Assembly: GCA_028715015.1 (NCBI GenBank) | Contig: JAQTLF010000001.1 | Span: forward strand, 29,243-93,242 | Reading direction: 5' to 3' | DNA from: Candidatus Moraniibacteriota bacterium | Lineage (GTDB): Bacteria; Patescibacteriota; Minisyncoccia; Moranbacterales; GWC2-37-73 | DNA length: 64,000 bases | Shown here: in pieces, positions 9,205 to 60,144 of the stretch | Layout: each line of letters starts with the position of its first letter | Position numbering within the stretch: position 1 is the stretch's first letter | Notes under the pieces: model-generated | The model's input: only the letters and a program-made list of their open reading frames with translations | What the model was told of the DNA's origin: nothing | Database searches by the model: none | Made by a program: the position numbers and the translations under genes

Positions 9205-9250
9205 TATTCATGGAGCATGGAGCATGGAGCATGGAGCATAAATCATGAAT
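9205..9250 (-). repeat. heptamer CATGGAG x4 tandem repeat abutting the smc start codon
   Basis: catggagcatggagcatggagcatggagca directly 5' of the smc ATG; it creates clustered upstream AUGs, including a mini-ORF ending in UAAUG that overlaps the start. Confidence 0.8.
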
Positions 9251-9367
9251 GTTGGTGACATCTATATTTGTGCCAGATGTTCCACATTATAAGATTTATG
9301 AATATTGTTCTATGTTCTATGTTTTATGTTCTATGACATTGTACTACACTTTTTTATTTTGGGAAAG

Positions 9368-9408
9368 AAAAAAGGCTACAAAGAAATATCTTGTAGCGCT
9401 TTTGGGTG
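9368..9408. terminator. bidirectional intrinsic terminator
   Basis: A-run, GGCTACAAagaaatatCTTGTAGC hairpin, T-run. Confidence 0.55.
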
Positions 9409-9644
9409 GTTTTGGTCTGGGTACATTCGGGATCGAATTGTGCTTTTTGTGAACAAAAATCCACCGAACGCACCCAGCTTTGAGGTTCGCAAAATTTCAT
9501 CGAACCAAAATAGATAAAAAGGGCTTGTGCAGAGGGTTGGGGATGTGTAATGATTTCGTAAGTTTACGCATTACAATATACCCCAATCCCTCTGACACCT
9601 TCATCATATACCCACAGTGATCATTGTCAAGCAAAAATACATAG

Positions 9645-9690
9645 AAAAAAGCCCCGAGCAGAACGCGTCTGTCGGGGCATTTGGTTTTTG
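9645..9690. terminator. bidirectional intrinsic terminator
   Basis: AAAAAA, GCCCCGAGCAGAACGCGTCTGTCGGGGC hairpin, TTTGGTTTTT; adjacent to a perfect 7-bp GC hairpin at 9696-9720. Confidence 0.6.
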
Positions 9691-10165
9691 GGCGACCCGC
9701 GGGGAACTTTCTCCCGCGGGCGCATTATTATAGCACATTTTTTTCAAAATTTTGCGGAGGCAGGGGATTTTCATCCGCTAGCCTTTCCGCGGTCAGATAT
9801 CAGTTATTGGATAGCATCCGCTTACGAAGTCCTCAGCCTCGTGCTGATGCATTCGCCGGCGACGGTTCTTGTCCCGCAGCAGGTTTCCATTTACCGGGCT
9901 GGCAATACAAGTTTGCCAGATTGGATTCAGGAACATCCAGGCGGGAAAGAGAAAATGAATTAGCATCATTCCTCCTCTTTGGCGAAAACAACTTCACTCT
10001 GAGGCGGCCCATTTTTTAGGGCGGCCGAGACCGGGGCGCTACTCGCGCTGGGTTATCCCAGGGATGTGGCCGGCGCCGGCAGGTCGGGCGATCAGGTCGT
10101 TCTTCTTGAAGTCGTCTATGTTTGTATCAAGGGTGTTACGGCTCCACGGCGGACTGTGATTCGAC
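9691..10165. ncRNA. GC-rich (~58% GC) non-coding island of unknown class; candidate structured RNA, strand unresolved
   Basis: ~475 bp with no credible ORF on either strand, embedded in a ~35% GC genome; many short GC helices; an intrinsic terminator is immediately adjacent at its low-coordinate end; the segment GGCGGACUGUGAUUCGACAUG resembles a tmRNA 5' end but no tRNA-like 3' domain was found. Confidence 0.3.
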
Positions 10166-10394
10166 ATGTTACACCTCCAGATTTAAAGTCACCATTCCAT
10201 TTTATTGGAAGGCGCTAACAGAAAAGTATTTACATTGTCTTTCAAAAAATTTCTTACAAAAATACCTTTCCCGTTAGTGCCTTCCAAACATATTGTCTTT
10301 TCCAAAGAGCTGTACACTATTTCAGTGTAAATTTGAGTATAGCGCACTTTTGCAATCCTGTCAAGGGTTAAAAGCTAAAATACCAATTTTTGGC

Positions 10395-10520
10395 TCAAAT
10401 AAAGTAAAATTTTAGCATAAATCTTAATATCAAAATCCAAATGTCAAATAAAATTCAAAAACCAAAATTTTTAAAAAGTATTTTAGAAATTGAGTCATTT
10501 ATTTAACATTTGTCATTGAG
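10395..10520. repeat. degenerate copy of the AT-rich inverted-repeat family (TTTGGATTTTGTCATTTGG motifs)
   Basis: shares the motifs aaaatccaaatgtcaaataaaat, gagtcatttatt and gtcattgagattttggattt with the repeats at 19606-19746 and 21381-21590. Confidence 0.5.
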
Positions 10521-10529
10521 ATTTTGGAT

Positions 10530-11522
10530 TTAGCGCATTATATACGCTGCCATTTCCACCAAGCGATTAGAATATCCCCACTCATTGTCATACCATCCCA
10601 CAATTTTGACTTGATTTCCCATGCTCATGGTCAAAGGCAGATCAACAATGGAAGAATGTGGATTCATTTTGTAGTCCATGGAAACCAGCTCTTTGGTGGT
10701 CGCATCCAAAATGCCATGCAGGCTTCCCTGAGACGCTTTGACAAAAGCCGCATTGATTTCTTCCACGCTTTTCGGAGTTTTCACTGACGCGATGAAATCA
10801 ACAATTGAAACAACCGGGGTTGGCACACGCAATGCGATTCCGTCCAGCTTGCCGTTGAGATGCGGCATCACCTTTCCCACTGTCTTGGCTGCACCTGTGG
10901 TGGTTGGAATGATTGAAAGAGCAGCAGCGCGAGCGCGACGCAAATCACGATGCGGCAAATCCAAAAGGTTTTGATCGTTGGTATATGAATGTGTGGTGGT
11001 CATGAACCCTTGCTCAACATCACAAAGATCATCCAAAACTTTGATCATCGGAGCCAAACAATTGGTAGTGCAAGATCCATTGGAAACAACCGCCTCGCCC
11101 TTGTACTCTTTTTCATTGACACCCAACAAATATACCGGCACGTCATCTTTTGGCGGCGCGGAAAGAACAACTTTTTTTGCTCCGGCAATGAGATGTTTTC
11201 CAGCCGAAACATTGTCCAAAAAAATTCCCGTGCAATCCAAAACAACATCCACCCCGAGTTTGGCCCAAGGCAAATTCGCAGGATCCTTTTCGGAAAAATA
11301 TTTCACCGGTTTTCCGTCAATGATGATCTCATTGTTTTCTTTGTCAACGACAACTTCCCTGCCATACACTCCATAGGAAGAATCGTATTTGAGCAGATGC
11401 GCACTTGTCTCGATATCAGTCAAATCATTGACCGCCACGATTTCCATCTCTTCTTTTTCAAAAACTATTTTCAGTGATGGTCTGCCAATGCGACCAAAAC
11501 CATTGATTGCAACTTTAAGCAT
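10530..11522 (-). CDS. gap: glyceraldehyde-3-phosphate dehydrogenase (start refined to MLKVAINGFGRIGR)
   Basis: NAD-binding GFGRIGR motif and catalytic SNGSCTTNCLAP motif. Confidence 0.95.
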   Translation of the reverse strand: MLKVAINGFGRIGRPSLKIVFEKEEMEIVAVNDLTDIETSAHLLKYDSSYGVYGREVVVDKENNEIIIDGKPVKYFSEKDPANLPWAKLGVDVVLDCTGIFLDNVSAGKHLIAGAKKVVLSAPPKDDVPVYLLGVNEKEYKGEAVVSNGSCTTNCLAPMIKVLDDLCDVEQGFMTTTHSYTNDQNLLDLPHRDLRRARAAALSIIPTTTGAAKTVGKVMPHLNGKLDGIALRVPTPVVSIVDFIASVKTPKSVEEINAAFVKASQGSLHGILDATTKELVSMDYKMNPHSSIVDLPLTMSMGNQVKIVGWYDNEWGYSNRLVEMAAYIMR

Positions 11523-11567
11523 GCATGTAGCATGTATCATGTAGCATGTATCATGTATAAATGCACT
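11523..11567 (-). repeat. heptamer CATGTAG/CATGTAT tandem repeat abutting the gap start codon
   Basis: catgtagcatgtatcatgtagcatgtatcatg, period 7. Confidence 0.8.
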
Positions 11568-11622
11568 TAATGCGCCATCCTATACATAATACTTGATACA
11601 AGAATACTTTATACTTAATTTA

Positions 11623-11898
11623 TTAATTTCCTTCAATTTCCGTCAGATGCCAATGATTGCCTTGGATGGTTTTGATGTTGAATTTTGTTTTTTCCAAAAT
11701 GGTTCCCTTGGCGATGTTTTTGATTCCGAATTTCAAATTTTCAATGCTGATGTCTTCGACATGTTCATCAAGTCCGTCGTGCGCCAATGCGATCTGTCCG
11801 ATTTCAAGATTGACATGTTCGATCTGTGAAAGTTTCTCGCTCTTCACAATTTTCATGATGTCATCAACAATTTCCTTGGCCAACATAAAATCATGCAT
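11623..11898 (-). CDS. HypA-like hydrogenase maturation protein lacking the Zn-finger cysteines (tentative)
   Basis: about 92 aa; N-terminal MHDFMLAKEIVDDI and C-terminal IQGNHWHLTEIEG resemble HypA, but it has no CxxC pairs; adjacent to the [NiFe]-hydrogenase genes. Confidence 0.35.
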   Translation of the reverse strand: MHDFMLAKEIVDDIMKIVKSEKLSQIEHVNLEIGQIALAHDGLDEHVEDISIENLKFGIKNIAKGTILEKTKFNIKTIQGNHWHLTEIEGN

Positions 11899-11945
11899 GA
11901 GTTCATGTAACATGTAGCATATAGCATGTAGCATTTGAGACACGA
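11899..11945 (-). repeat. heptamer CATGTAA/CATGTAG/CATATAG repeat abutting the hypA-like start
   Basis: catgtaacatgtagcatatagcatgtagca, period 7. Confidence 0.75.
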
Positions 11946-11994
11946 AGTTCCCATCCGCATTTTTGTTATATGTTATATGTTGTATGTTATATGA

Positions 11995-13257
11995 TTAGTG
12001 TACCGCACAACTGATGCACGGATCATAGGCACGGATGAAAGCGCGCATTTTTCTTTCCATAGCTTTTTCATCTTTGCTCAGAATTCCTGGAATAAATGCC
12101 GCGATATCATCTTCCAAATGTGTCAAAAATTGGGCAGTCGGAGTGATGATGTTCACATTTTTGATATATCCTTTTTCGTCGATGTCAACCCAATAATACA
12201 AAGTTCCGCGTGGCGCCTCGACGGCGGCGGCTGCAGATCCTTCACGAACGACATATTCCTTAGTGATGGCATTTTCCAAATTTGCATGCGTCAACTCTTT
12301 CAATAATTGCAATGAATCCTCAACGCAATGGATCACCTCTGTCATTTGATACAGCACGTTGTGGAATGGATTGTAGTCAGGCATGTTGAAATTCAAGCTT
12401 TTCAAAAATTCCCGTGCGCCGTGACTGAGTTTTTCATGGTTGTTATTGACTCGTGCAATGGCTCCAACCATGTAGCTTGTTTTTCCATCATGCATGACGC
12501 GTTTGATGATTTCTTTCGGCCGTTGGAATTCATGGAAGTTTTCTTCGAATTTTTGCACATCCACATGCAATCCCTTGTTGGAAACGACATCTCCATCATA
12601 GATGGCATATTCCCCTTTTGTTTTCAGACAGACATATTCCGTGGGACGACTGAAATCAGGAGTTTTGATCGTGCGGAAAAAGGCCGCCAATTCCAAAGTG
12701 ATCGGAAGTGTTTCTTGAGCCTTTAAAATCAAACTTTTCAATTCATCTTGGGTGGGAACTTTTTTGAATCCTCCAACTTCATTGGTGAGCGGATGCACCA
12801 CGCGACCGCCAATGACCTTGATGATTTCCATGCCATATTCACGAATCTTCACCGCCATCTTTGTCTGTTCCGGATAGGCTTTCACCAGATCCATGTCATT
12901 TTCAATGTCCAAAAAATCTGCCAACGACAAAAAGAAAAGATGCAGCGCGTGTGAATGGATGAACTGGGCATGCTCCATGACCTTCCTGAGTTTTTCAGTT
13001 TCCGGACTTACCTCAATTTTCATGGCATTTTCAATGGCTTTGATTGCAGTCAGGTTGTGCACCACCGGACAAATGCCGCAAATTCTTTGCGCGATTGTCG
13101 GCATGTCTTTGTAGTGCCTTCCCACCAAGACGCCCTCGATAAGTCTGATTCCTTCCTGCACTTCAAATTTGGCAGATTTCACATCTCCCTTAATAACACT
13201 GGCCATAAAACCAGTGTGTCCTTCAATTTTTGCAATGTGATTTATTTTTATATTCAT
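11995..13257 (-). CDS. [NiFe]-hydrogenase large subunit (cytoplasmic group 3-like; start refined to MNIKINH)
   Basis: N-terminal RICGICPVVH (RxCGxCxxxH) and C-terminal DPCISCAVH (DPCxxCxxH) Ni-Fe ligand motifs. Confidence 0.9.
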   Translation of the reverse strand: MNIKINHIAKIEGHTGFMASVIKGDVKSAKFEVQEGIRLIEGVLVGRHYKDMPTIAQRICGICPVVHNLTAIKAIENAMKIEVSPETEKLRKVMEHAQFIHSHALHLFFLSLADFLDIENDMDLVKAYPEQTKMAVKIREYGMEIIKVIGGRVVHPLTNEVGGFKKVPTQDELKSLILKAQETLPITLELAAFFRTIKTPDFSRPTEYVCLKTKGEYAIYDGDVVSNKGLHVDVQKFEENFHEFQRPKEIIKRVMHDGKTSYMVGAIARVNNNHEKLSHGAREFLKSLNFNMPDYNPFHNVLYQMTEVIHCVEDSLQLLKELTHANLENAITKEYVVREGSAAAAVEAPRGTLYYWVDIDEKGYIKNVNIITPTAQFLTHLEDDIAAFIPGILSKDEKAMERKMRAFIRAYDPCISCAVH

Positions 13258-13292
13258 AATTTCATGTAGCATGCAACATGTATCATGTAACA
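13258..13292 (-). repeat. heptamer CATG repeat abutting the hydrogenase large-subunit start
   Basis: catgtagcatgcaacatgtatcatgtaac; creates a mini-ORF whose UGA overlaps the start (AUGA). Confidence 0.75.
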
Positions 13293-13337
13293 AGCACGGT
13301 TTTTTGAATTTTTGTTTTATGCTATATGTTATACGCT

Positions 13338-14962: not shown

Positions 14963-15169
14963 TTAGTGATTTTTATCAAGCAAAGAAATAATTTCCATGG
15001 CTTCATCTTCTTCAAGTTTTTCCAAGATAATATTCTGTTGTGAAATAACAAAATCTCCGACAGCCAATTCTATCAGGGTTTTCAATTCTTGTCTATTGCC
15101 ATCATGATTCTCAACAACAACAGAATTTTCTTTTATTTCAATGACTTTTTTTGGCAAAGTTAGACACAT
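14963..15169 (-). CDS. hypC: hydrogenase assembly chaperone HypC/HupF
   Basis: 68 aa, MCLTLPKKVIEI N-terminus (MC[LI]xxP) and C-terminal VGDFVI. Confidence 0.8.
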   Translation of the reverse strand: MCLTLPKKVIEIKENSVVVENHDGNRQELKTLIELAVGDFVISQQNIILEKLEEDEAMEIISLLDKNH

Positions 15170-15259
15170 ACTTGCTTCGCAAAGTCTAAAGTTTCAAGTC
15201 TAAAGCTAAAAGCAACCTAAACTTTATAAACATTGCAACATTATAAACCTTATAACTAT

Positions 15260-16126: not shown

Positions 16127-16225
16127 AAAATTTTAAATTCTAAGTTATAAATTTTAAATCAATTTCAAATGATTCAATTTTAAATTTAGTAATTTTAATT
16201 TGATTTAAAATTAAAAATTTAAAAC

Positions 16226-19524: not shown

Positions 19525-19605
19525 TGTTTTGATTTTATTCTATTGATTAAATTATCTTATCTAAAGTATAGCATATTATGGCAAAAAGACCACACTACGT
19601 CCAAA

Positions 19606-19746
19606 GATACAATGACCAAAAAATCTCAAATCTCAATTTCCAATGTCAAATAAAATCCAAAATCTCAAATCCTAAAAATTTTTTAGACATTTTGGCTTGA
19701 GTCATTTATTGGAAATTTGGATTTTGTCATTTGGATTTTAGTTTGA
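19606..19746. repeat. left arm of a long inverted repeat flanking the ruvX-map segment
   Basis: 19649-19746 is the exact reverse complement of 21381-21479; 19606-19648 matches RC(21547-21590) with one mismatch. Confidence 0.9.
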
Positions 19747-19770
19747 TGTTTGTTTCTTGTATCTTGTTGT

Positions 19771-21347: not shown

Positions 21348-21380
21348 ATTTTATCAATAATAAAGATACAAGAAGCAAAT

Positions 21381-21590
21381 ATCAAACTAAAATCCAAATG
21401 ACAAAATCCAAATTTCCAATAAATGACTCAAGCCAAAATGTCTAAAAAATTTTTAGGATTTGAGATTTTGGATTTTATTATCAAACGTAGCGAGTGTAAT
21501 AAAAAATTTTTTATTACCGAGCAAGTGCAGATAATATGGTAACCCATATTTGACATTGGAAATTGGGATTTGAGATTTTTTGGTTATTGT
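21381..21590. repeat. right arm of the long inverted repeat (carries a 67-bp internal insertion at 21480-21546)
   Basis: reverse complement of 19606-19746; the insertion contains the perfect palindrome GTAATAAAAAATTTTTTATTAC. Confidence 0.9.
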
Positions 21591-21604
21591 TTTTTGTTTC
21601 CTGA

Positions 21605-22246
21605 TTATTCTAATTCACTAACTATATCTCCAAAAACTTCTTCCACTCCCCTGTTTCCATCAACTTCAATCAGCATTCCTTTGTGGCGATAATGTTCAAT
21701 GACTGGAATGGTGATTTCATAGAAAGTGTCCAATCTTTTTTTGATTCCGTCTGGCGTGTCATCATTTCTTTGCATGATCGGTCCTCCGCATGTCGGACAA
21801 GGCTCTTCAGTGTTGTGGATATGTTTGCCAAGAACGAAATGGCGATAACAAACAGTGCATGCATAACGTTTGGTGATGCGCCTGACTGATTCGTCATAAG
21901 GCAAAGTGATGTATATGGCCTTATCTATTGGACGATTCATTTCTTGGAGCATCTTCTCCACTGGAACAATCTGACCAGATGTGCGTGGTGCGCTGTCCAG
22001 CAAGACGCCCCTTTCCGGGGAAACTTTTTCCAAACGATCTTCAAGAACTTCCAAAGTGATGTCATCCGGAATCATTTCTTTTTGATCCAAAATTTCCTTA
22101 ACATTTCTTCCGAGATCAGATTCTTCCCTGGAAATTTCCCTGAAAATAAGACCGGTTTCAATATGCGCCAAGTTGTATTTTTCACAGAGCAAATCAGCTT
22201 GTGTTCCCTTCCCGCTTCCCTGCGGACCAAAGATAATAATATTCAT
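21605..22246 (-). CDS. adk: adenylate kinase (zinc-lid type)
   Basis: P-loop GPQGSGKGT; lid CxxC...CxxC (CTVCYRH...CPTCGG). Confidence 0.95.
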   Translation of the reverse strand: MNIIIFGPQGSGKGTQADLLCEKYNLAHIETGLIFREISREESDLGRNVKEILDQKEMIPDDITLEVLEDRLEKVSPERGVLLDSAPRTSGQIVPVEKMLQEMNRPIDKAIYITLPYDESVRRITKRYACTVCYRHFVLGKHIHNTEEPCPTCGGPIMQRNDDTPDGIKKRLDTFYEITIPVIEHYRHKGMLIEVDGNRGVEEVFGDIVSELE

Positions 22247-22300
22247 GTTTTAGCTTTTTAGGCTTTAGCTTCTTAGCTTCTTAGCTTCTTGAAAAACTCA
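22247..22300 (-). repeat. octamer AAGAAGCU x3-5 repeat abutting the adk start
   Basis: minus-strand sense caAGAAGCTAAGAAGCTAAGAAGCTAAAGCCTAAAAAGCTAAAAC-ATG. Confidence 0.75.
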
Positions 22301-22348
22301 TTCAAATTCCTGAAAAGCTAATTGCCTAAAAAGCTATGAAGCTGTTAA

Positions 22349-23620
22349 TTAGAATCCTTCGTAATCTCTCATGACAAGTTGTCCTTCGATTTGTTTGATT
22401 GTTTCAATCACAACTGAAACAACAATAAGAATACTGGTGCCGCCAATCTTGAGAGACTGGATGTTTGTCATCCCTTGAATGACAAATGGCAGCACAGCAA
22501 TGGTTCCCAAGAAAATTGATCCGGTAAGTGTGATCCTATTCATGATCTTGTACAAAAAGTCGGCAGTTGTTTTTCCGGGTCTTATCCCTGGAATGTAGCC
22601 TCCTTGTTTTTGAAGATTTTCCGCAATTTTGACAGGATCAAAAACGACTGCGGTATAGAAATATGTGAACATGACAATCAAAATAAAATACAGACTGCTG
22701 TAAAAAACTTGGTTTTGGAAAAGGGTGTTCACGAATGCGGCCGCATGCGCAACCGCAGGATTTGAGGCTTTCATGAGGAAAGTAGCAATCATTCCAGGAA
22801 AAAGCATGATTGACATAGCGAAAATAATTGGAATAACTCCAGCTTGGTTGACTCGCAACGGCAAATGCGTTGTTGAACCGCCATAAGTCTTGTCGCCCCT
22901 CACTCTCTTGGCATATGAAACCGGAATGTTTCTTTGTCCTTCAGTCACCAACACAACACCGGCAATAGTGATCAGTGTGACAGCCAAAAGCGCAATGTAT
23001 GTAAAAATCTGGGTTGAATCCAAAGTCAAAAGAAGTTTGGAAATTCCGGAAGGAAGTCCGCTGACAATACCGGCAAAAATGATCAGGGACACGCCATTGC
23101 CTATGCCTTTTTCTGTGATAAGCTCGCCCAACCACATCAAAAATATAGTTCCAGCTGTGGCTATGATCACAATAACTGCAATATCAAAAGGTGCCGAGAC
23201 TGACAAAACCCCTTGTGAACGCAACAAGGTGATCAAACTGAAAGTCTGCAGAACTGCCAATGGCACAGTGAGCCATCTTGTCCACATGTTGAATTTTTGT
23301 CTTCCAGCTTCACCTTCCTCTTTATAGAGCTGCTCCACTCGCGGCACGATCATGGTCAAAAGCTGCATGATGATTGATGCGGTGATATATGGTCCGACGC
23401 CCAACATGACAATCGAAATGTTCGTCAATCCTCCGCCAGAAAAAACATTCAACATGCCCAAAAATTGATTGCCCTCAAAAAGACGTCTCAATTGTTCGAT
23501 ATTCACACCTGGAACCGGCACATTGGCAGCAATCCTGAAAACAACAAGAATCCCCAAAATGAAGAGGATCTTGTTGCGCAGTTCTGGTATTTTGAAGATT
23601 TGTGTTATTTTTTCAAGCAT
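22349..23620 (-). CDS. secY: preprotein translocase subunit SecY
   Basis: 423 aa, 10-TM SecY topology, in the conserved position after rplO. Confidence 0.95.
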   Translation of the reverse strand: MLEKITQIFKIPELRNKILFILGILVVFRIAANVPVPGVNIEQLRRLFEGNQFLGMLNVFSGGGLTNISIVMLGVGPYITASIIMQLLTMIVPRVEQLYKEEGEAGRQKFNMWTRWLTVPLAVLQTFSLITLLRSQGVLSVSAPFDIAVIVIIATAGTIFLMWLGELITEKGIGNGVSLIIFAGIVSGLPSGISKLLLTLDSTQIFTYIALLAVTLITIAGVVLVTEGQRNIPVSYAKRVRGDKTYGGSTTHLPLRVNQAGVIPIIFAMSIMLFPGMIATFLMKASNPAVAHAAAFVNTLFQNQVFYSSLYFILIVMFTYFYTAVVFDPVKIAENLQKQGGYIPGIRPGKTTADFLYKIMNRITLTGSIFLGTIAVLPFVIQGMTNIQSLKIGGTSILIVVSVVIETIKQIEGQLVMRDYEGF

Positions 23621-23624
23621 TTCA

Positions 23625-23720
23625 AATAGCTTCTCAGCTTCTTAGCCTTTCAGCTTCTTAGCTTTAAAGATAGCATTAGTTTTTTTAATTTCCTAAGAAG
23701 CTAACAAGCTAATGCCTCAG
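23625..23720 (-). repeat. octamer/nonamer GCTAAGAAG-type repeats upstream of secY
   Basis: sense ...AAGCTAAGAAGCTGAAAGGCTAAGAAGCTGAGAAGCTATTTGAA-ATG. Confidence 0.7.
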
Positions 23721-23723
23721 AAG

Positions 23724-24161
23724 CTACTCTAGGATTTTTCCACCTGCTTTGATTATAGCATCTTTGGCAGTTTGTGAAAGAAGTATTTCTGCTGAAATAG
23801 TAAGTTTTTTGGCAATTGTTCCGCTGGCAAGAATCTTTAGACCGTTTTTAACGTCAGCCTTGTCCACAATTTTTGCTCCAAGCAAAGTTTCAACCGAAAT
23901 GATGTCATTGTCTTTGAAAGCTTTTTCCAAAGTTTCCAATTTTATCACAGTTTTCTTGGCATTAAGAGATTTGAAACCTCGCACTTTTTTCAAGCGTTCA
24001 ACAAGTGAAGATCGTCCACCTTCAAACAACGGATCGATTGATGCTCCAGAGCGAGCTTTCTGACCTTTGTTTCCACGACCAGAATAAGTTCCGCGCTTTC
24101 CGCCACGACCAACTGTTTTTTTGTCCTTGCGTTTTTTTACTTTAAGTTGATGAATTTGCAT
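23724..24161 (-). CDS. rplO: 50S ribosomal protein L15
   Basis: Gly/Arg-rich N-terminus (GRGGKRGTYSGRG) and position between rpsE and secY. Confidence 0.9.
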   Translation of the reverse strand: MQIHQLKVKKRKDKKTVGRGGKRGTYSGRGNKGQKARSGASIDPLFEGGRSSLVERLKKVRGFKSLNAKKTVIKLETLEKAFKDNDIISVETLLGAKIVDKADVKNGLKILASGTIAKKLTISAEILLSQTAKDAIIKAGGKILE

Positions 24162-24241
24162 AAATTTAACTTATAACTTATAACTAACCACTTATAACGA
24201 ATTTTTACGTATTTCTGTTGTTTGTTATTTGTTATTGGTAA

Positions 24242-24760: not shown

Positions 24761-24805
24761 AATTATCATTAATCATGGAACATGGAGCATGGAACAAAAA
24801 TTCCA
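24761..24805 (-). repeat. heptamer CATGGAA/CATGGAG repeat abutting the rpsE start
   Basis: aatcatggaacatggagcatggaac. Confidence 0.8.
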
Positions 24806-24852
24806 ATCTGCCACACAATGTTCTATGTTTTATGCTCTATGTTATGTGTTAT

Positions 24853-25203: not shown

Positions 25204-25245
25204 AATTTATAATGAATCATGGAACATGGAGCATGGAACATATTT
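25204..25245 (-). repeat. heptamer CATGGAA/CATGGAG repeat abutting the rplR start
   Basis: aatcatggaacatggagcatggaaca; a mini-ORF stop (UGA) overlaps the start (AUGA). Confidence 0.8.
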
Positions 25246-25287
25246 TTTATTATCTTGCTCTATGCTTTATGCTCTATGTTATGTGAT

Positions 25288-25824: not shown

Positions 25825-25919
25825 ACTATTTTATCGTTCTAATTGTTATAATTGTTCTATGCGTTCTAGTTGTTTTTTCAATTACAACAGTTACAACATT
25901 TAGAACACTAGCACATCTA

Positions 25920-26591: not shown

Positions 26592-26677
26592 AATTTATCG
26601 TGAAACGTGGGGCGCGTAGCGTGGAGCGTTTGCATTCCTACGTTATGCGTTTTACGTTATGCGTTTTACCCTTTTAC

Positions 26678-27582: not shown

Positions 27583-27682
27583 ATATTTTAGTCAAAAGTC
27601 TTTCAAGTCTTTCAAGTCTTTCAAGCCAATGCATTTCTGCTTTATGGACTTTATGGACTTTCGACTTTATGGACTGCAATTA
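27583..27682 (-). repeat. ~95-bp composite repeat element, copy A (AAGTCTTTC x3 + aatgcatttctgc + TTTATGGAC x3)
   Basis: fills the rplN-rplX intergenic spacer; nearly identical to copies at 28049-28149 and 30483-30585. Confidence 0.9.
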
Positions 27683-28048: not shown

Positions 28049-28149
28049 ATATTTTAGTCAAAAGTCTATCAAGTCTATCAAGTCTATCAAGCTAATGCAT
28101 TTCTGCTTTATGGACTTTATGGACTTTCGACTTTATGGACTGCTATTAT
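28049..28149 (-). repeat. ~95-bp composite repeat element, copy B (AAGTCTATC x3 variant)
   Basis: the same substitution is present in all three tandem units of this copy (concerted variant). Confidence 0.9.
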
Positions 28150-30482: not shown

Positions 30483-30585
30483 AAATGTTAGTCAAAAGTC
30501 TTTCAAGTCTTTCAAGTCTTTCAAGTCAATGCATTTCTGCTTTATAGACCTTATGAACTTTATAACTTTATGGACTGGATATTAC
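30483..30585 (-). repeat. ~95-bp composite repeat element, copy C (more diverged 3' half)
   Basis: AAGTCTTTC x3 + aatgcatttctgc + TTTATAGAC/TTATGAACT/TTTATGGAC. Confidence 0.85.
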
Positions 30586-30983: not shown

Positions 30984-31814
30984 CTATTTCTTAATCCTTC
31001 GTTTTACAATAAATTTATCACTATATCTGTTCTTCTTTCTTGTTTTCTTTCCAAGTGCTGGTTTTCCCCAAGGAGTTTTCGGATATTTCAAACCGATTCC
31101 TTGTCGTCCTTCTCCTCCTCCATGTGGATGATCAACAGGATTCATGGCTGATCCGCGAACTTCCGGTCTCTTTCCCTTCCATCTGTTTCTTCCAGCCTTT
31201 CCGAGTTTTTCTGCACTATGTTCAAAATTGCTAACTCTTCCGATTGTGGCATAGCATTCTTTGCTTACCAATCTGATCTCACCTGATGACATCTTAAGTT
31301 GTGCCATTTTGTCATCGATAGCCATCAATGTTGCTCCGCTTCCGGCGCTGCGAGTGATCTGTCCACCTTTTCCAGCAATCAATTCGATGTTTGAAACAAC
31401 TGTTCCTGATGGAATGTTTTTAAGAACTGTGCGGTTTCCTTTTTTGATCGGCGCATCAACTCCTGTCATAATTTCCATCCCGGCTTTCATACCTTCAGTC
31501 GCAAGCACATATTTTTTGTCCCCATCAATATATGAAATAAGACAGATAAGGGCGCTTCTGTTTGGATCCTTTTCCACAGAAACGATACGTCCAAGGACAC
31601 CAAATTTCTGTTGCTTGAAATCAACCAAGCGATATCGACGCTTGTGACCTCCACCTTGATGACGAGTTGAGATTTTTCCATGAGATCTTCCTGCTTTCTG
31701 TGTCATTGGTGCAAGCAAGGATTTTTCAGGTTTTTTGTCTGTCAAATTGTCAGGTTTAACAATAGACATGTTTCGCCTTCCTGCTGTATTTTTCTTGTAT
31801 ACTTTAATTGCCAT
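30984..31814 (-). CDS. rplB: 50S ribosomal protein L2
   Basis: GRNRWKGKRPEVRGSAMNPVDHPHGGGEG motif. Confidence 0.95.
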   Translation of the reverse strand: MAIKVYKKNTAGRRNMSIVKPDNLTDKKPEKSLLAPMTQKAGRSHGKISTRHQGGGHKRRYRLVDFKQQKFGVLGRIVSVEKDPNRSALICLISYIDGDKKYVLATEGMKAGMEIMTGVDAPIKKGNRTVLKNIPSGTVVSNIELIAGKGGQITRSAGSGATLMAIDDKMAQLKMSSGEIRLVSKECYATIGRVSNFEHSAEKLGKAGRNRWKGKRPEVRGSAMNPVDHPHGGGEGRQGIGLKYPKTPWGKPALGKKTRKKNRYSDKFIVKRRIKK

Positions 31815-31898
31815 AATATTTTTTAGGTTTTAGCTTTTTAGCCTTTAGCTTTTCAGGAAAAACCTGAGAAGCTTAGAAGCTAATGCCTGAACAGCTAT
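31815..31898 (-). repeat. octamer AAAAAGCU-type repeats abutting the rplB start
   Basis: sense GAAAAGCTAAAGGCTAAAAAGCTAAAACCTAAAAAATATT-ATG. Confidence 0.7.
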
Positions 31899-32291
31899 TT
31901 ATGCTCCTTGGAATAATTCGATCTTATCTCCTTGTTTCAATGTCACGGTTGCTTTTTTGAATCCTGATTTCGTTCCTTCATGGCGTCCATAAGCCTTTTT
32001 CTTTGGCTGAATGTTCACAACAGTGATTTTTTCAACTTTTACAGCATATATACCTTCGATGGCTAGTTTCACCTGTTTTTTGGTGGCACTGTTGATAACT
32101 TTGAAAGTATATTTATTGTGAGCCATCGCAGCATGAGTCTTTTCAGTAATCCAGGGTTCCACAAGAATCTTATATGCGATCCCGGAATTCTGCGCAGCCA
32201 CAACTGGCTTAGCTTCCGCCTTCTTGGCAACTTTTTTTGCTGCCACCTTTGGCTTATCAACTATTTCTTTTTTCTCTTCAATTGCTGCCAT
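31899..32291 (-). CDS. rplW: 50S ribosomal protein L23 with a ~35-aa Ala/Lys-rich N-terminal extension
   Basis: L23 core (AYKILVEPWITEKT...) preceded by AAKKVAKKAEAKPVVAA. Confidence 0.9.
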   Translation of the reverse strand: MAAIEEKKEIVDKPKVAAKKVAKKAEAKPVVAAQNSGIAYKILVEPWITEKTHAAMAHNKYTFKVINSATKKQVKLAIEGIYAVKVEKITVVNIQPKKKAYGRHEGTKSGFKKATVTLKQGDKIELFQGA

Positions 32292-45338: not shown

Positions 45339-45508
45339 TATATGGTTTCAAATATTAACTTTTGTTTTTTGCTTTGCCTGTTTTCTTTTGAGGCCATCCG
45401 CAGCGAGAGCAAGGACGAGCGAGCAATCATAGTTCTTCGATTGCGAAGCGTGCCGAAAAAGGAAATAGGCAAAGCAAAAAAAGTCAGAGAAAACTATATA
45501 TTGCGCAT
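45332..45508. mobile_element. MITE-like element copy 1 (~177 bp, imperfect 15-17-bp TIRs, GC-richer core)
   Basis: about 90% identical, in inverse orientation, to 59965-60144; the TIR resembles TGCACAATATATGG ... CTATATATTGCGCA. Confidence 0.75.
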
Positions 45509-45583
45509 TAACCCAATAATGCTGTTTTATAAGTTGTCACTGAAGAATCAAATCTGAGAAATGATTCTTCAGTGACACAAGTT

Positions 45584-59948: not shown

Positions 59949-59964
59949 TTGAAATTTATTGGTT

Positions 59965-60144
59965 CATACGCAATATATGGTTCTCTCTGACTTTTTTGCT
60001 TAGCCTATTTCCTTTTTCGGCACGCTTCGCAGTCGCAAGACCATGACTACTCGCTCGTCCTCGCTGTCGCTGCGGATGGCCTCAAAAGAAAACAGGCAAA
60101 GCAAAAAAACAAAAGTTAATATTTGAAATCATATATTGCGTATG
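59965..60144. mobile_element. MITE-like element copy 2 (180 bp, perfect 15-bp TIRs CATACGCAATATATG)
   Basis: TIRs at 59965-59979 and 60130-60144; sub-terminal inverted motifs TTTTTTGCTTAGCC / GGCAAAGCAAAAAAA; GC-rich core. Confidence 0.8.

What the first reader, a model, noticed from the sequence alone, without database searches (positions are those of the whole stretch)
22247..23723. Octamer purine-rich (AAGAAGCU / AAAAAGCU) repeat leaders upstream of adk, secY and rplB
A second leader-repeat family of period 8 (sense AAGAAGCU x3-5) directly precedes the starts of adk (22247-22300), secY (23625-23720) and rplB (31815-31898). A related AGTCTAAAG pair precedes hypC (15170-15259). The adk leader also encodes a 6-codon uORF (AUGAGUUUUUCAAGAAGCUAA). 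Together with the heptamer family, this points to a genome-wide use of short tandem repeats as 5' leader modules.
Basis: seen in the sequence. Interest (0 to 1): 0.5.

Follow-up and report, generated by a model that had tools for sequence, protein, structure and literature searches.

The report
Hairpin-forming tandem-repeat spacers between genes
The octamer "leaders" before adk, secY and rplB are only half of ~85-105-base palindromic spacers that fill the gaps between genes in this candidate-phyla-radiation bacterium; they resemble the repeat hairpins known from cyanobacteria, but here they are swapped whole between near-identical strains.

Summary
The octamer arrays are real and non-random, and each ends 3-7 nt before its start codon. 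Every array has a complementary array just after the upstream stop codon, so each spacer (secY-adk, rplO-secY, rplW-rplB) is one long imperfect hairpin (-23 to -39 kcal/mol, z -3.2 to -4.8), about equally stable on both strands.

These three belong to a class of at least 16 such cassettes in the window, with periods of 7, 8 or 9. The organism is a Moranbacteria-like Patescibacterium that almost entirely lacks Shine-Dalgarno motifs.

The cassettes turn over quickly:
- A metagenome contig with 100% identical flanking genes carries a different cassette across one whole spacer.
- The closest genome lacks almost all of them.
- One cassette is 95% identical to a copy at a different gene junction in a genome whose genes are only 67-79% identical.

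Best reading: copy-and-paste palindromic spacer elements, akin to cyanobacterial STRR hairpins and REPINs, that fold into stem-loops in the operon mRNA. A pure "5' leader module" reading is only partly supported. What the cassettes do, and how they are exchanged, is inferred, not shown.

The parts
22247..22348 (-). secY-adk intercistronic cassette (whole spacer, 102 nt), AGCT-octamer family
   Evidence: Sense RNA -31.3 kcal/mol, z -3.50; antisense -30.3, z -3.83. The stem spans 22251-22336.
22250..22290 (-). Start-proximal (3') arm: AAGAAGCU x3 plus two degenerate units.
   Evidence: TRF period 8, 5.2 copies. Ends 3 nt before the adk AUG at 22246.
22305..22343 (-). Stop-proximal (5') arm, complementary units (AGCUUUUU/AGGCAAUU/AGCUUUUC)
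   Evidence: Inverted repeats I1-I5, 77-100% complementary to 22250-22290. TRF period 16 at 22305-22336.
22281..22301 (-). 6-codon uORF AUGAGUUUUUCAAGAAGCUAA in the loop and 3' arm; probably incidental
   Evidence: Read directly from the sequence. The L084 orthologous spacer has no AUG.
23621..23726 (-). rplO-secY intercistronic cassette, AGCT-octamer family. The rplO stop codon UAG (23724-23726) is the first three bases of the stem.
   Evidence: Sense -38.6 kcal/mol, z -4.84; antisense -31.7, z -4.32. The stem spans 23627-23726 and ends 6 nt before the secY start codon (AUG at 23618-23620); 9 unpaired nt to the end of the folded stretch, which includes that AUG.
23627..23664 (-). Start-proximal (3') arm of the secY cassette (AAGAAGCU/GAAAGGCU/GAGAAGCU units)
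   Evidence: TRF period 8, 4.6 copies; I1-I4.
23693..23726 (-). Stop-proximal (5') arm of the secY cassette
   Evidence: TRF 23693-23712, period 8; 85-89% complementary to 23627-23661.
31815..31898 (-). rplW-rplB intercistronic cassette, AGCT family with looser period 7/8. 3' arm 31824-31858, loop 31859-31863, 5' arm 31864-31897.
   Evidence: Sense -23.3 kcal/mol, z -3.17; antisense -31.2, z -4.83.
27583..27682 (-). Same class, nonamer family (rplN-rplX). This spacer is replaced by another cassette in contig L081.
28049..28149 (-). Same class, nonamer family (rpsQ-rplN); identical in L081
30483..30585 (-). Same class, nonamer family (rpsS-rplV)
25825..25919 (-). Same class, 9-mer GUUCUAA/UAGAACAAU family (rpsH-rplF). 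94.9% identical to the L084 rpsE-rplO cassette and 91% to the L081 rplN-rplX cassette.
24770..24852 (-). Same class, CATG heptamer family (rplR-rpsE). Further members: 25204-25287, 9205-9340, 11523-11622, 11898-11994, 13257-13337, 26592-26677. Single-member families: 24162-24241 and 16127-16225.

Best explanation
The octamer 'leaders' are the start-proximal arms of palindromic intercistronic cassettes.

Anatomy. Each cassette has four parts:
- a stop-proximal arm of UUAGCUUN-type units, beginning 0-15 nt after the upstream stop codon;
- an A/U-rich apex, often with a small AGGAA...UUCCU stem;
- a complementary arm of NAAGCUAA units;
- a short A/U-rich tail of 3-12 nt before the AUG.

Behaviour as DNA. 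The cassettes act as copy-and-paste elements. Families with a 7-, 8- or 9-nt unit are shared between genomes, sit at different gene junctions in different genomes, are gained and lost quickly, and can replace one another across a whole spacer. Slippage within arrays and copying between the two arms would keep the arms repetitive and complementary.

Behaviour as RNA. In the polycistronic mRNA each cassette folds into one long stem-loop that brackets the spacer and leaves the A/U-rich tail and the start codon outside the stem.

Most likely effect (inferred): intercistronic punctuation in a genome without Shine-Dalgarno motifs. The stem-loop would act as a 3' stability or processing hairpin for the upstream cistron and would bring stop and start codons close together. 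The cassettes are tolerated or mildly useful rather than essential.

Shown: the anatomy, the complementarity of the arms, the position, the family structure, the turnover and the conservation across genomes. Inferred: transcription as part of the operon mRNA, folding in vivo, any effect on stability or translation, and the mechanism of exchange.
For: - Arrays and positions.
- Complementary arms and significant folds on both strands.
- Arm-matching permutation test, 0 of 10,000.
- The organism is a Moranbacteria-like Patescibacterium.
- The same architecture with other unit sequences occurs in 34 related loci. Density falls from 17 per 100 kb in the window to 6.0, 2.7, 1.7 and 0.6 per 100 kb as SecY identity falls.
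- The AGCT family has the same layout in L084 (both secY flanks), L056, L004, L032, L110 and L116.
- Whole-spacer replacement between contigs with 100% identical coding flanks.
- The closest genome, L056, has short cassette-free spacers at nearly all junctions.
- A cassette 94.9% identical sits at a non-orthologous junction in a genome whose genes are 67-79% identical.
- No overall bias towards sense-strand G.U pairs (66 against 94), and the AGCT family is about equally stable on both strands. This points to palindromy at the DNA level.
- Only 5 of 66 genes have an SD-like core.
- The cassettes are not terminator-like, promoter-like or in Rfam.
Against: - No transposase, target-site duplication or terminal signature was found. 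The L081 swap replaces the spacer exactly from stop to start with no shared residual flank, which a simple insertion model does not explain.
- Strain-level variation rests on a single 1-kb contig.
- The heptamer superfamily pairs well only on the antisense strand, so 'sense mRNA stem-loop' cannot be the whole story for the class.
- Enrichment in ribosomal, glycolytic and hydrogenase operons, together with cross-genome conservation above that of the genes, could instead mean strong selection on function.
- There are no expression data.
Confidence: 0.55

Rival explanations
1. Selected RNA element. The hairpins are kept by selection on the operon mRNA. They would serve as RNase III or other processing sites and 3' stabilisers, or as devices that place the stop and start codons side by side, allowing termination-reinitiation without a Shine-Dalgarno motif. 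Their mobility would be secondary.
For: - The stems run from 0-15 nt after the stop to 3-12 nt before the AUG, and in the secY cassette the stop codon is inside the stem.
- The arms covary at family level.
- The cassettes are concentrated in highly expressed operons.
- The genome lacks SD motifs.
- Cyanobacterial STRR hairpins have been proposed to stabilise transcripts or couple translation (PMC2670836).
Against: - L056 manages without cassettes at the same junctions.
- There is no preference for sense-strand G.U pairs.
- The heptamer superfamily barely folds in the sense strand (-8 to -15 kcal/mol against -27 to -45 antisense).
- Predicted pairing of the -12..-1 region is variable (0.23-0.90).
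Confidence: 0.25
2. The tandem arrays are 5' leader modules read as repeats, for example as binding sites for S1, a cold-shock-type protein or another RNA-binding protein, like the TAACTGA heptamers of Beggiatoaceae. They would tune translation of the downstream gene, and the complementary arm would be incidental.
For: - The arrays end 1-14 nt before start codons, with no SD motif.
- The 3' half of one cassette family is identical over 43 nt between the window and L084 while the 5' half differs.
- All 8 AGCT cassettes found by a strict pattern have the A-rich arm next to the AUG and none has the reverse order.
- (ACAAGCTA)n arrays sit directly upstream of SD-ATG in some viral contigs.
- TAACTGA precedent: PMC4679880.
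Against: - A complementary partner is present in essentially every case, whereas TAACTGA sets are 169 direct to 1 indirect.
- Unit sequences differ completely between families, so no single binding protein fits.
- The start-proximal arm has no general composition rule.
- The cassettes are absent in the close relative L056.
Confidence: 0.1
3. Local mutational by-product. Replication slippage in A/T-rich spacers, combined with quasipalindrome template-switching, grows mirrored arrays in place. There would be no function and no movement between sites.
For: - Copy number and unit variants differ between arms and between orthologous spacers.
- A unit change is the same in all three copies of one array (GAAAGACUU to GAUAGACUU).
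Against: - Near-identical cassettes, including loops and tails, occur at several junctions in one genome (89-95%).
- Near-identical cassettes occur at non-orthologous junctions in genomes with 67-79% gene identity.
- A whole spacer is replaced by a member of another family.
Confidence: 0.07
4. Assembly artefact. Repeats in metagenome assemblies could have created the spacers or the swap.
For: The cassettes are repeated within 400 nt of each other, which can confuse assemblers.
Against: - Two independent contigs (L082, L083; sample SRR22315509), fetched from another public collection (Logan) by exact match to the window's own proteins, are 100% identical to the window over 7.5 kb, including all three octamer cassettes.
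- The junction sequences of both alleles are unique.
- The same architecture occurs in dozens of independent MAGs and contigs.
Confidence: 0.03

Closest known systems
Cyanobacterial STRR (short tandemly repeated repetitive) heptamer hairpins in intergenic spacers, e.g. hupS-hupL of Nostoc/Anabaena
   Same: Both are short tandem repeats in spacers between co-transcribed genes that can fold into a hairpin, with a proposed role in transcript stability or translational coupling (PMC2670836). This window even has one between the small and large NiFe-hydrogenase subunits (13257-13337).
   Different: - A different phylum (Patescibacteria) and different unit sequences.
- Periods of 7, 8 and 9 rather than 7.
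- The cassettes fill the spacer from stop to start and are dense in the ribosomal protein operon.
- Whole-cassette replacement between near-identical strains, and conservation across genomes above that of the genes, are shown here. I could not check the STRR literature for either property.
REP/REPIN elements mobilised by RAYT transposases (PMC3116915, PMC2817692)
   Same: Both are extragenic, hairpin-forming inverted pairs of short repeats, dispersed in many copies and evolving within genomes as miniature mobile DNA.
   Different: The arms here are tandem arrays of 7-9-nt units rather than one 20-40-nt imperfect palindrome. Many unrelated sequence families coexist. No RAYT or other transposase was seen in the DNA available. 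The elements occupy the whole spacer inside operons.
TAACTGA heptamer direct repeats upstream of start codons in Beggiatoaceae, cyanobacteria and Bacteroidetes (PMC4679880)
   Same: Both are tandem 7-nt units within a few nt of start codons that lack an SD motif, including inside ribosomal protein operons. Their distribution across lineages is patchy.
   Different: TAACTGA arrays have a single conserved unit and are direct only (169 direct sets, one indirect). Here each array has a complementary partner and the units are diverse.
MITEs and mycobacterial MIRUs (from my own knowledge of these families)
   Same: All are small non-coding dispersed repeats in intergenic or intercistronic positions, and MITEs fold into hairpins.
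   Different: No target-site duplication or parent IS was found. MIRU units are 40-100 bp and carry small ORFs that overlap the flanking stop and start codons, which is not the case here.

Membership tests
STRR-type intergenic tandem-repeat hairpins | Short (7-bp) units repeated in tandem in intergenic DNA | tested here: met
   Periods of 7, 8 and 9, with 2.3-5.2 copies per arm. 38 of 51 arrays are intergenic.
STRR-type intergenic tandem-repeat hairpins | The array can form a hairpin with a nearby complementary array | tested here: met
   (z -3.2 to -4.8; 0 of 10,000 permutations).
STRR-type intergenic tandem-repeat hairpins | Canonical STRR unit sequences and a filamentous cyanobacterial host | tested here: not met
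   The host is a Moranbacteria-like Patescibacterium. The units are AGCTTCTT, CATGGAG, AAGTCTTTC and others.
REP/REPIN | Two inverted copies of a conserved short palindromic repeat forming a hairpin, present in many extragenic copies | tested here: inconclusive
   Inverted arms and multiple copies per family are present (3 octamer, 3 nonamer, about 7 heptamer cassettes in 64 kb). However, the arms are tandem arrays, and the genome-wide copy number is unknown.
REP/REPIN | A cognate RAYT (Y1 transposase) gene in the genome | not testable with these tools
   Only 64 kb of the genome is available. The 30 ORFs scanned against Pfam gave no transposase.
MITE | Terminal inverted repeats flanked by a target-site duplication | tested here: not met
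   No duplicated flank appears at the three octamer or three nonamer cassettes. The L081 allele replaces the whole spacer with no shared residue.
TAACTGA-type direct-repeat leaders | Direct repeats of one conserved heptamer immediately upstream of start codons, without an inverted partner | tested here: not met
   The position criterion is met, but partners are always present and the units are diverse. Compare.
Intrinsic terminator / attenuator | A G+C-rich stem followed by a U tract | tested here: not met
   No terminator-like site lies in any of the three spacers. Counts are at shuffle level, 11 against 11.5.
Known ribosomal-protein leader RNAs or other Rfam families | A match to a curated covariance model | tested here: not met
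   No hit at gathering threshold anywhere in the window.

The most novel reading that the evidence does not exclude
Patescibacteria carry a previously undescribed class of exchangeable intercistronic cassettes. These are palindromes built from 7-9-nt tandem units that occupy the spacer exactly from stop codon to start codon. A dedicated, structure-directed mechanism (a hairpin-specific single-strand recombinase or nuclease, or an RNA-mediated route) would copy them between junctions and genomes faster than point mutations accumulate. In these SD-less genomes they would act as the signal that hands ribosomes from one cistron to the next, or that punctuates the operon mRNA. The antisense-only pairing of the heptamer superfamily would then reflect the strand on which the exchange machinery reads the hairpin.
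Probability: 0.2. Interest if true: 0.8.

Novelty: new variant of a known kind. Interest (0 to 1): 0.55.

Why it matters
Candidate-phyla-radiation genomes are small and compact. Even so, this one spends about 100 bases on a structured palindrome at most junctions of its ribosomal protein operon, where bacteria usually have almost no spacer.

If the cassettes are functional, they would show how operon genes are translated or processed in a lineage without Shine-Dalgarno sites. If they are selfish, they are a compact, fast-moving repeat class in organisms thought to carry little mobile DNA, and would make useful strain markers.

The one-contig evidence of a clean stop-to-start swap points to an exchange mechanism that is not yet described. 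The finding also warns annotators that AUG-containing units cause over-extended gene starts.

Tried and rejected
- **Rfam and tRNA scans.** The gathering-threshold scan of the window and the tRNA scan found nothing.
- **Terminator and promoter scans.** Counts were at chance level and no site lies in the octamer spacers.
- **Sense-strand G.U bias as a test for RNA-level selection.** No general bias was found: 66 against 94, and 19 cassettes favour sense, 22 antisense, 18 neither. This does not support sense-RNA selection, but it did expose the antisense-only heptamer superfamily.
- **'A-rich arm next to the AUG' as a general rule.** Rejected: the ratio is 26:48 the other way, although all 8 strict-pattern AGCT cassettes follow it.
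- **uORF as a conserved feature.** Rejected, because it is absent in L084.
- **hypC pair as a family member.** Rejected.
- **More strain-level alleles by exact-protein look-up.** The rplO, adk and rplW look-ups returned only contigs identical to the window. The rplX, rpsH and rpsS look-ups returned nothing.
- **Metagenome scan with SecY.** No relative above 90% identity other than the partial L143.
- **Viral contigs.** AGCT-octamer direct arrays exist in 29 contigs, generally without a matching complementary arm, and the 24-nt core of the 9-mer cassette is absent. This gives no evidence for a phage vector.
- **Literature.** Seven full-text searches found no description of such cassettes in Patescibacteria. 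Absence from this library does not prove absence from the literature.
- **Gene orientation context.** The cassettes my script placed between convergent or divergent genes were mostly artefacts of my crude ORF caller, so that test is uninformative.
Full report
**1. Observation**

All genes in this part of the window lie on the minus strand. Pfam confirms adk (21605-22246), secY (22349-23620), rplO (23724-24161), rplB (30984-31814), rplW (31899-32291) and a HypC-family gene (14963-15169).

Tandem Repeats Finder reports period-8 arrays at 22250-22290 (5.2 copies) and 23628-23664 (4.6 copies), and a looser period-7/15 array at 31820-31857. AAGAAGCT occurs 13 times against 3.4 expected. The pattern AGCT-N4-AGCT-N4-AGCT (up to 1 mismatch) occurs 6 times against 0.04 expected, and only in these three spacers. 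The arrays end 3, 7 and 6 nt before the start codons. The core observation is therefore real and not due to chance.

Two details do not hold:
- The hypC spacer holds two CTTTAGACTT copies and some GTTTATAA-like units. It is not the same family and its fold is not significant.
- The 6-codon uORF exists (22301 to 22281) but is not conserved in the orthologous spacer of L084.

**2.

Each of the three spacers contains a second set of units, right after the upstream stop codon, that is the reverse complement of the 'leader' array. The whole spacer is therefore one long imperfect hairpin.

| Spacer | Sense RNA (kcal/mol, z) | Antisense RNA (kcal/mol, z) |
|---|---|---|
| secY-adk | -31.3, -3.50 | -30.3, -3.83 |
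| rplO-secY | -38.6, -4.84 | -31.7, -4.32 |
| rplW-rplB | -23.3, -3.17 | -31.2, -4.83 |

In the rplO-secY spacer the stop codon UAG is the first three bases of the stem, and the stem ends 6 nt before the secY start codon. The three elements share a common layout: TAGCT..AGGCA.TTAGCTT.., then an apex, then AAGCTAA units, then an A/T tail. They are homologous copies of one element.

**3. The class within the window**

I curated 16 such cassettes in 64 kb:
- an octamer AGCT family of 3;
- a nonamer family of 3 (27583-27682, 28049-28149, 30483-30585), 89-95% identical to each other including loop and tail;
- a CATG/ACGC heptamer superfamily of about 7;
- three single-member families.

Arm complementarity is specific to each spacer. 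Own-arm duplexes average -26.8 kcal/mol against -11.5 for arms taken from different spacers, and 0 of 10,000 permutations reach the observed mean.

Of 51 arrays with period 6-12, 38 are intergenic although only 15.4% of the window is non-coding (p = 8e-21). Their positions are bimodal: one array ends 1-14 nt before the downstream AUG, and its partner starts 1-12 nt after the upstream stop.

The cassettes sit in the ribosomal protein operon and next to gap, fba, tim and the NiFe-hydrogenase genes. Operons at 36-48 kb have short spacers without cassettes.

**4. Organism and relatives**

SecY places the window in the Moranbacteria-like Patescibacteria, with best identities of 88% (L056), 84% (L084) and 73-74% (L001, L002).

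A TRF-plus-duplex screen finds the same architecture, with quite different unit sequences, in 34 of about 160 related loci. Density falls with distance from the window:

| Set (SecY identity to the window) | Cassettes per 100 kb |
|---|---|
| Window | 17 |
| At least 65% | 6.0 |
| 55-65% | 2.7 |
| 50-55% | 1.7 |
| Below 50% | 0.6 |

The AGCT family itself recurs with the same layout in several genomes, with SecY identity down to 57% and often with an apical AGGAA...TTCCT mini-stem:
- L084, at both secY flanks;
- L056, at rplO-secY, in degenerate form;
- L004, L032, L110 and L116.

**5. Dynamics**

- Contig L081 was found by an exact look-up of the L14 protein. Apart from one spacer it is 100% identical to the window across its 1013 nt (rpsQ, rplN, part of rplX and the rpsQ-rplN cassette). 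Its rplN-rplX spacer is replaced, from the base after the stop codon to the base before the start codon, by a cassette of another family. That cassette is 91% identical to the window's rpsH-rplF cassette.
- The closest genome, L056, has short spacers (1-61 nt) without cassettes at nearly every junction of the operon. The exception is rplO-secY.
- L084 has cassettes, but of different families at orthologous junctions, except around secY.
- The window's rpsH-rplF cassette is 94.9% identical over 78 nt to L084's rpsE-rplO cassette, while the coding sequences of the two genomes are only 67-79% identical.

Cassettes therefore move between junctions and are better conserved than the genes around them. 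Contigs L082 and L083, fetched from a different public collection (Logan, SRR22315509) by exact match to the window's own proteins, reproduce the window exactly over 7.5 kb, which argues against an assembly artefact.

**6. Tests of function**

- The genome is essentially free of Shine-Dalgarno motifs: 5 of 66 genes have a 4-nt SD-like core. The last 10 nt before start codons are A/T-rich.
- None of the octamer spacers looks like an intrinsic terminator or a promoter beyond chance, and Rfam has no match.
- Across 59 co-directional cassettes there is no preference for G.U pairs on the sense strand (66 against 94). Sense is more stable in 19, antisense in 22, and neither in 18. The AGCT family is balanced in the same way. 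This fits palindromy maintained at the DNA level better than selection on the sense RNA alone.
- One exception is unexplained. The CATG/ACGC heptamer superfamily pairs well only on the antisense strand, in this window and in L084, L085 and L103.
- The 'purine-rich leader' idea does not generalise. The stop-proximal arm is more often the A-rich one (48:26), although all 8 AGCT cassettes found by a strict pattern have the A-rich arm next to the AUG.

**7. Explanation**

The best-supported reading is that these are palindromic, copy-and-paste intercistronic cassettes whose arms are short tandem arrays. In the operon mRNA each would form a stem-loop bracketing the spacer, with an A/U-rich tail and the start codon left outside.

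I think the most likely effect is punctuation of the operon mRNA: 3' stabilisation or processing of the upstream cistron, and bringing the stop and start codons close together. The elements seem tolerated or mildly useful rather than essential, because a close relative lacks them.

- Shown: anatomy, position, arm complementarity, family structure, turnover and cross-genome conservation.
- Inferred: folding in vivo, any effect on RNA or translation, and the exchange mechanism.

The clean stop-to-start swap is not explained by simple insertion, and I leave it open.

**8. Comparison with known systems**

The nearest described phenomenon is the cyanobacterial STRR heptamer hairpin in spacers such as hupS-hupL, for which transcript stability or translational coupling has been proposed (PMC2670836). 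This window even has a heptamer hairpin between its own hydrogenase small and large subunit genes.

REPINs (PMC3116915) resemble these cassettes in being hairpin-forming inverted pairs that spread within genomes. The TAACTGA repeats (PMC4679880) resemble them in sitting directly upstream of SD-less start codons, including inside ribosomal protein operons. None of these fits as a family:
- the STRR unit sequences and host differ;
- no RAYT and no target-site duplication was found;
- TAACTGA arrays lack a complementary partner.

Seven full-text searches found no description of such cassettes in Patescibacteria.

**9. Verdict**

The feature is a new variant of a known kind (STRR- or REPIN-like intergenic hairpins), seen here in a new lineage, with periods of 7-9, whole-spacer architecture and very fast exchange.

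Interest is moderate (0.55). A specialist would be surprised by the density of cassettes in a streamlined genome's ribosomal protein operon, and by the swap between identical strains. Function and mechanism remain untested, and the swap rests on one short contig.

Noticed in passing
window 9205-9340, 11898-11994, 24770-24852, 25204-25287, 26592-26677; L084 76-148; L085 7688-7745; L103 1322-1408: The CATG/ACGC heptamer cassettes pair well only on the strand antisense to the genes, with two G.U pairs per 7-nt unit where the sense strand has C.A mismatches. Duplex energies are about -27 to -45 kcal/mol antisense against -8 to -15 sense. The asymmetry is conserved across genomes and is unexplained.
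   Followed up: partly
L081 766-862 versus window 27583-27682: A 1013-nt metagenome contig with 100% identical rpsQ, rplN and rplX coding sequence carries a cassette of a different family across the entire rplN-rplX spacer. The replacement runs exactly from stop to start.
   Followed up: yes
window 45339-45519 and 59956-60135: A 181-nt dispersed repeat is present in two copies in opposite orientation, 90% identical. Each folds into a very long hairpin (z -7.8 and -10.3). It is a MITE-like element unrelated to the tandem-repeat cassettes.
   Followed up: partly
window 9340-10529: A 1.2-kb stretch between smc and gap has no credible ORF and contains G+C-rich, strongly self-complementary segments. 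Rfam gives only chance-level miRNA hits at E up to 1. Its nature is unknown.
   Followed up: partly
window, all 66 gene starts: Only 5 of 66 genes have a 4-nt Shine-Dalgarno-like core at -20..-4, and the last 10 nt before start codons are A/T-rich. The genome appears to initiate translation without SD pairing.
   Followed up: yes
window 13257-13337, 11898-11994, 11523-11622: Heptamer units contain AUG, so mechanical ORF calls over-extend the starts of the hydrogenase large subunit (true start near 13256), hypA (near 11897) and gap (near 11522). The spacer between the small and large hydrogenase subunits carries a heptamer hairpin, as hupS-hupL does in cyanobacteria.
   Followed up: partly
window 19525-19770 and 21348-21604; L084 adk-map spacer: Two long spacers (246-257 nt) hold repeats of period 25-26 nt (AAATCCAAA/ATTTGGATTT motifs). 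Similar text occurs in the 303-nt adk-map spacer of L084. This is a different kind of structured spacer, and I did not analyse it.
   Followed up: no
L172, L179, L187, L188, L190 (viral contigs, about 52% G+C): (ACAAGCTA) x3-4 lies directly upstream of AAGGAGA-N6-ATG of a conserved phage gene, with no complementary arm. Octamer AGCT arrays therefore also occur as plain leaders outside Patescibacteria.
   Followed up: no
window 27596-27625 versus 28062-28091: All three units of one nonamer array differ from the sister cassette by the same base (GAAAGACUU against GAUAGACUU). This concerted change within an array improves pairing on the plus strand (-31.1 against -23.9 kcal/mol).
   Followed up: partly
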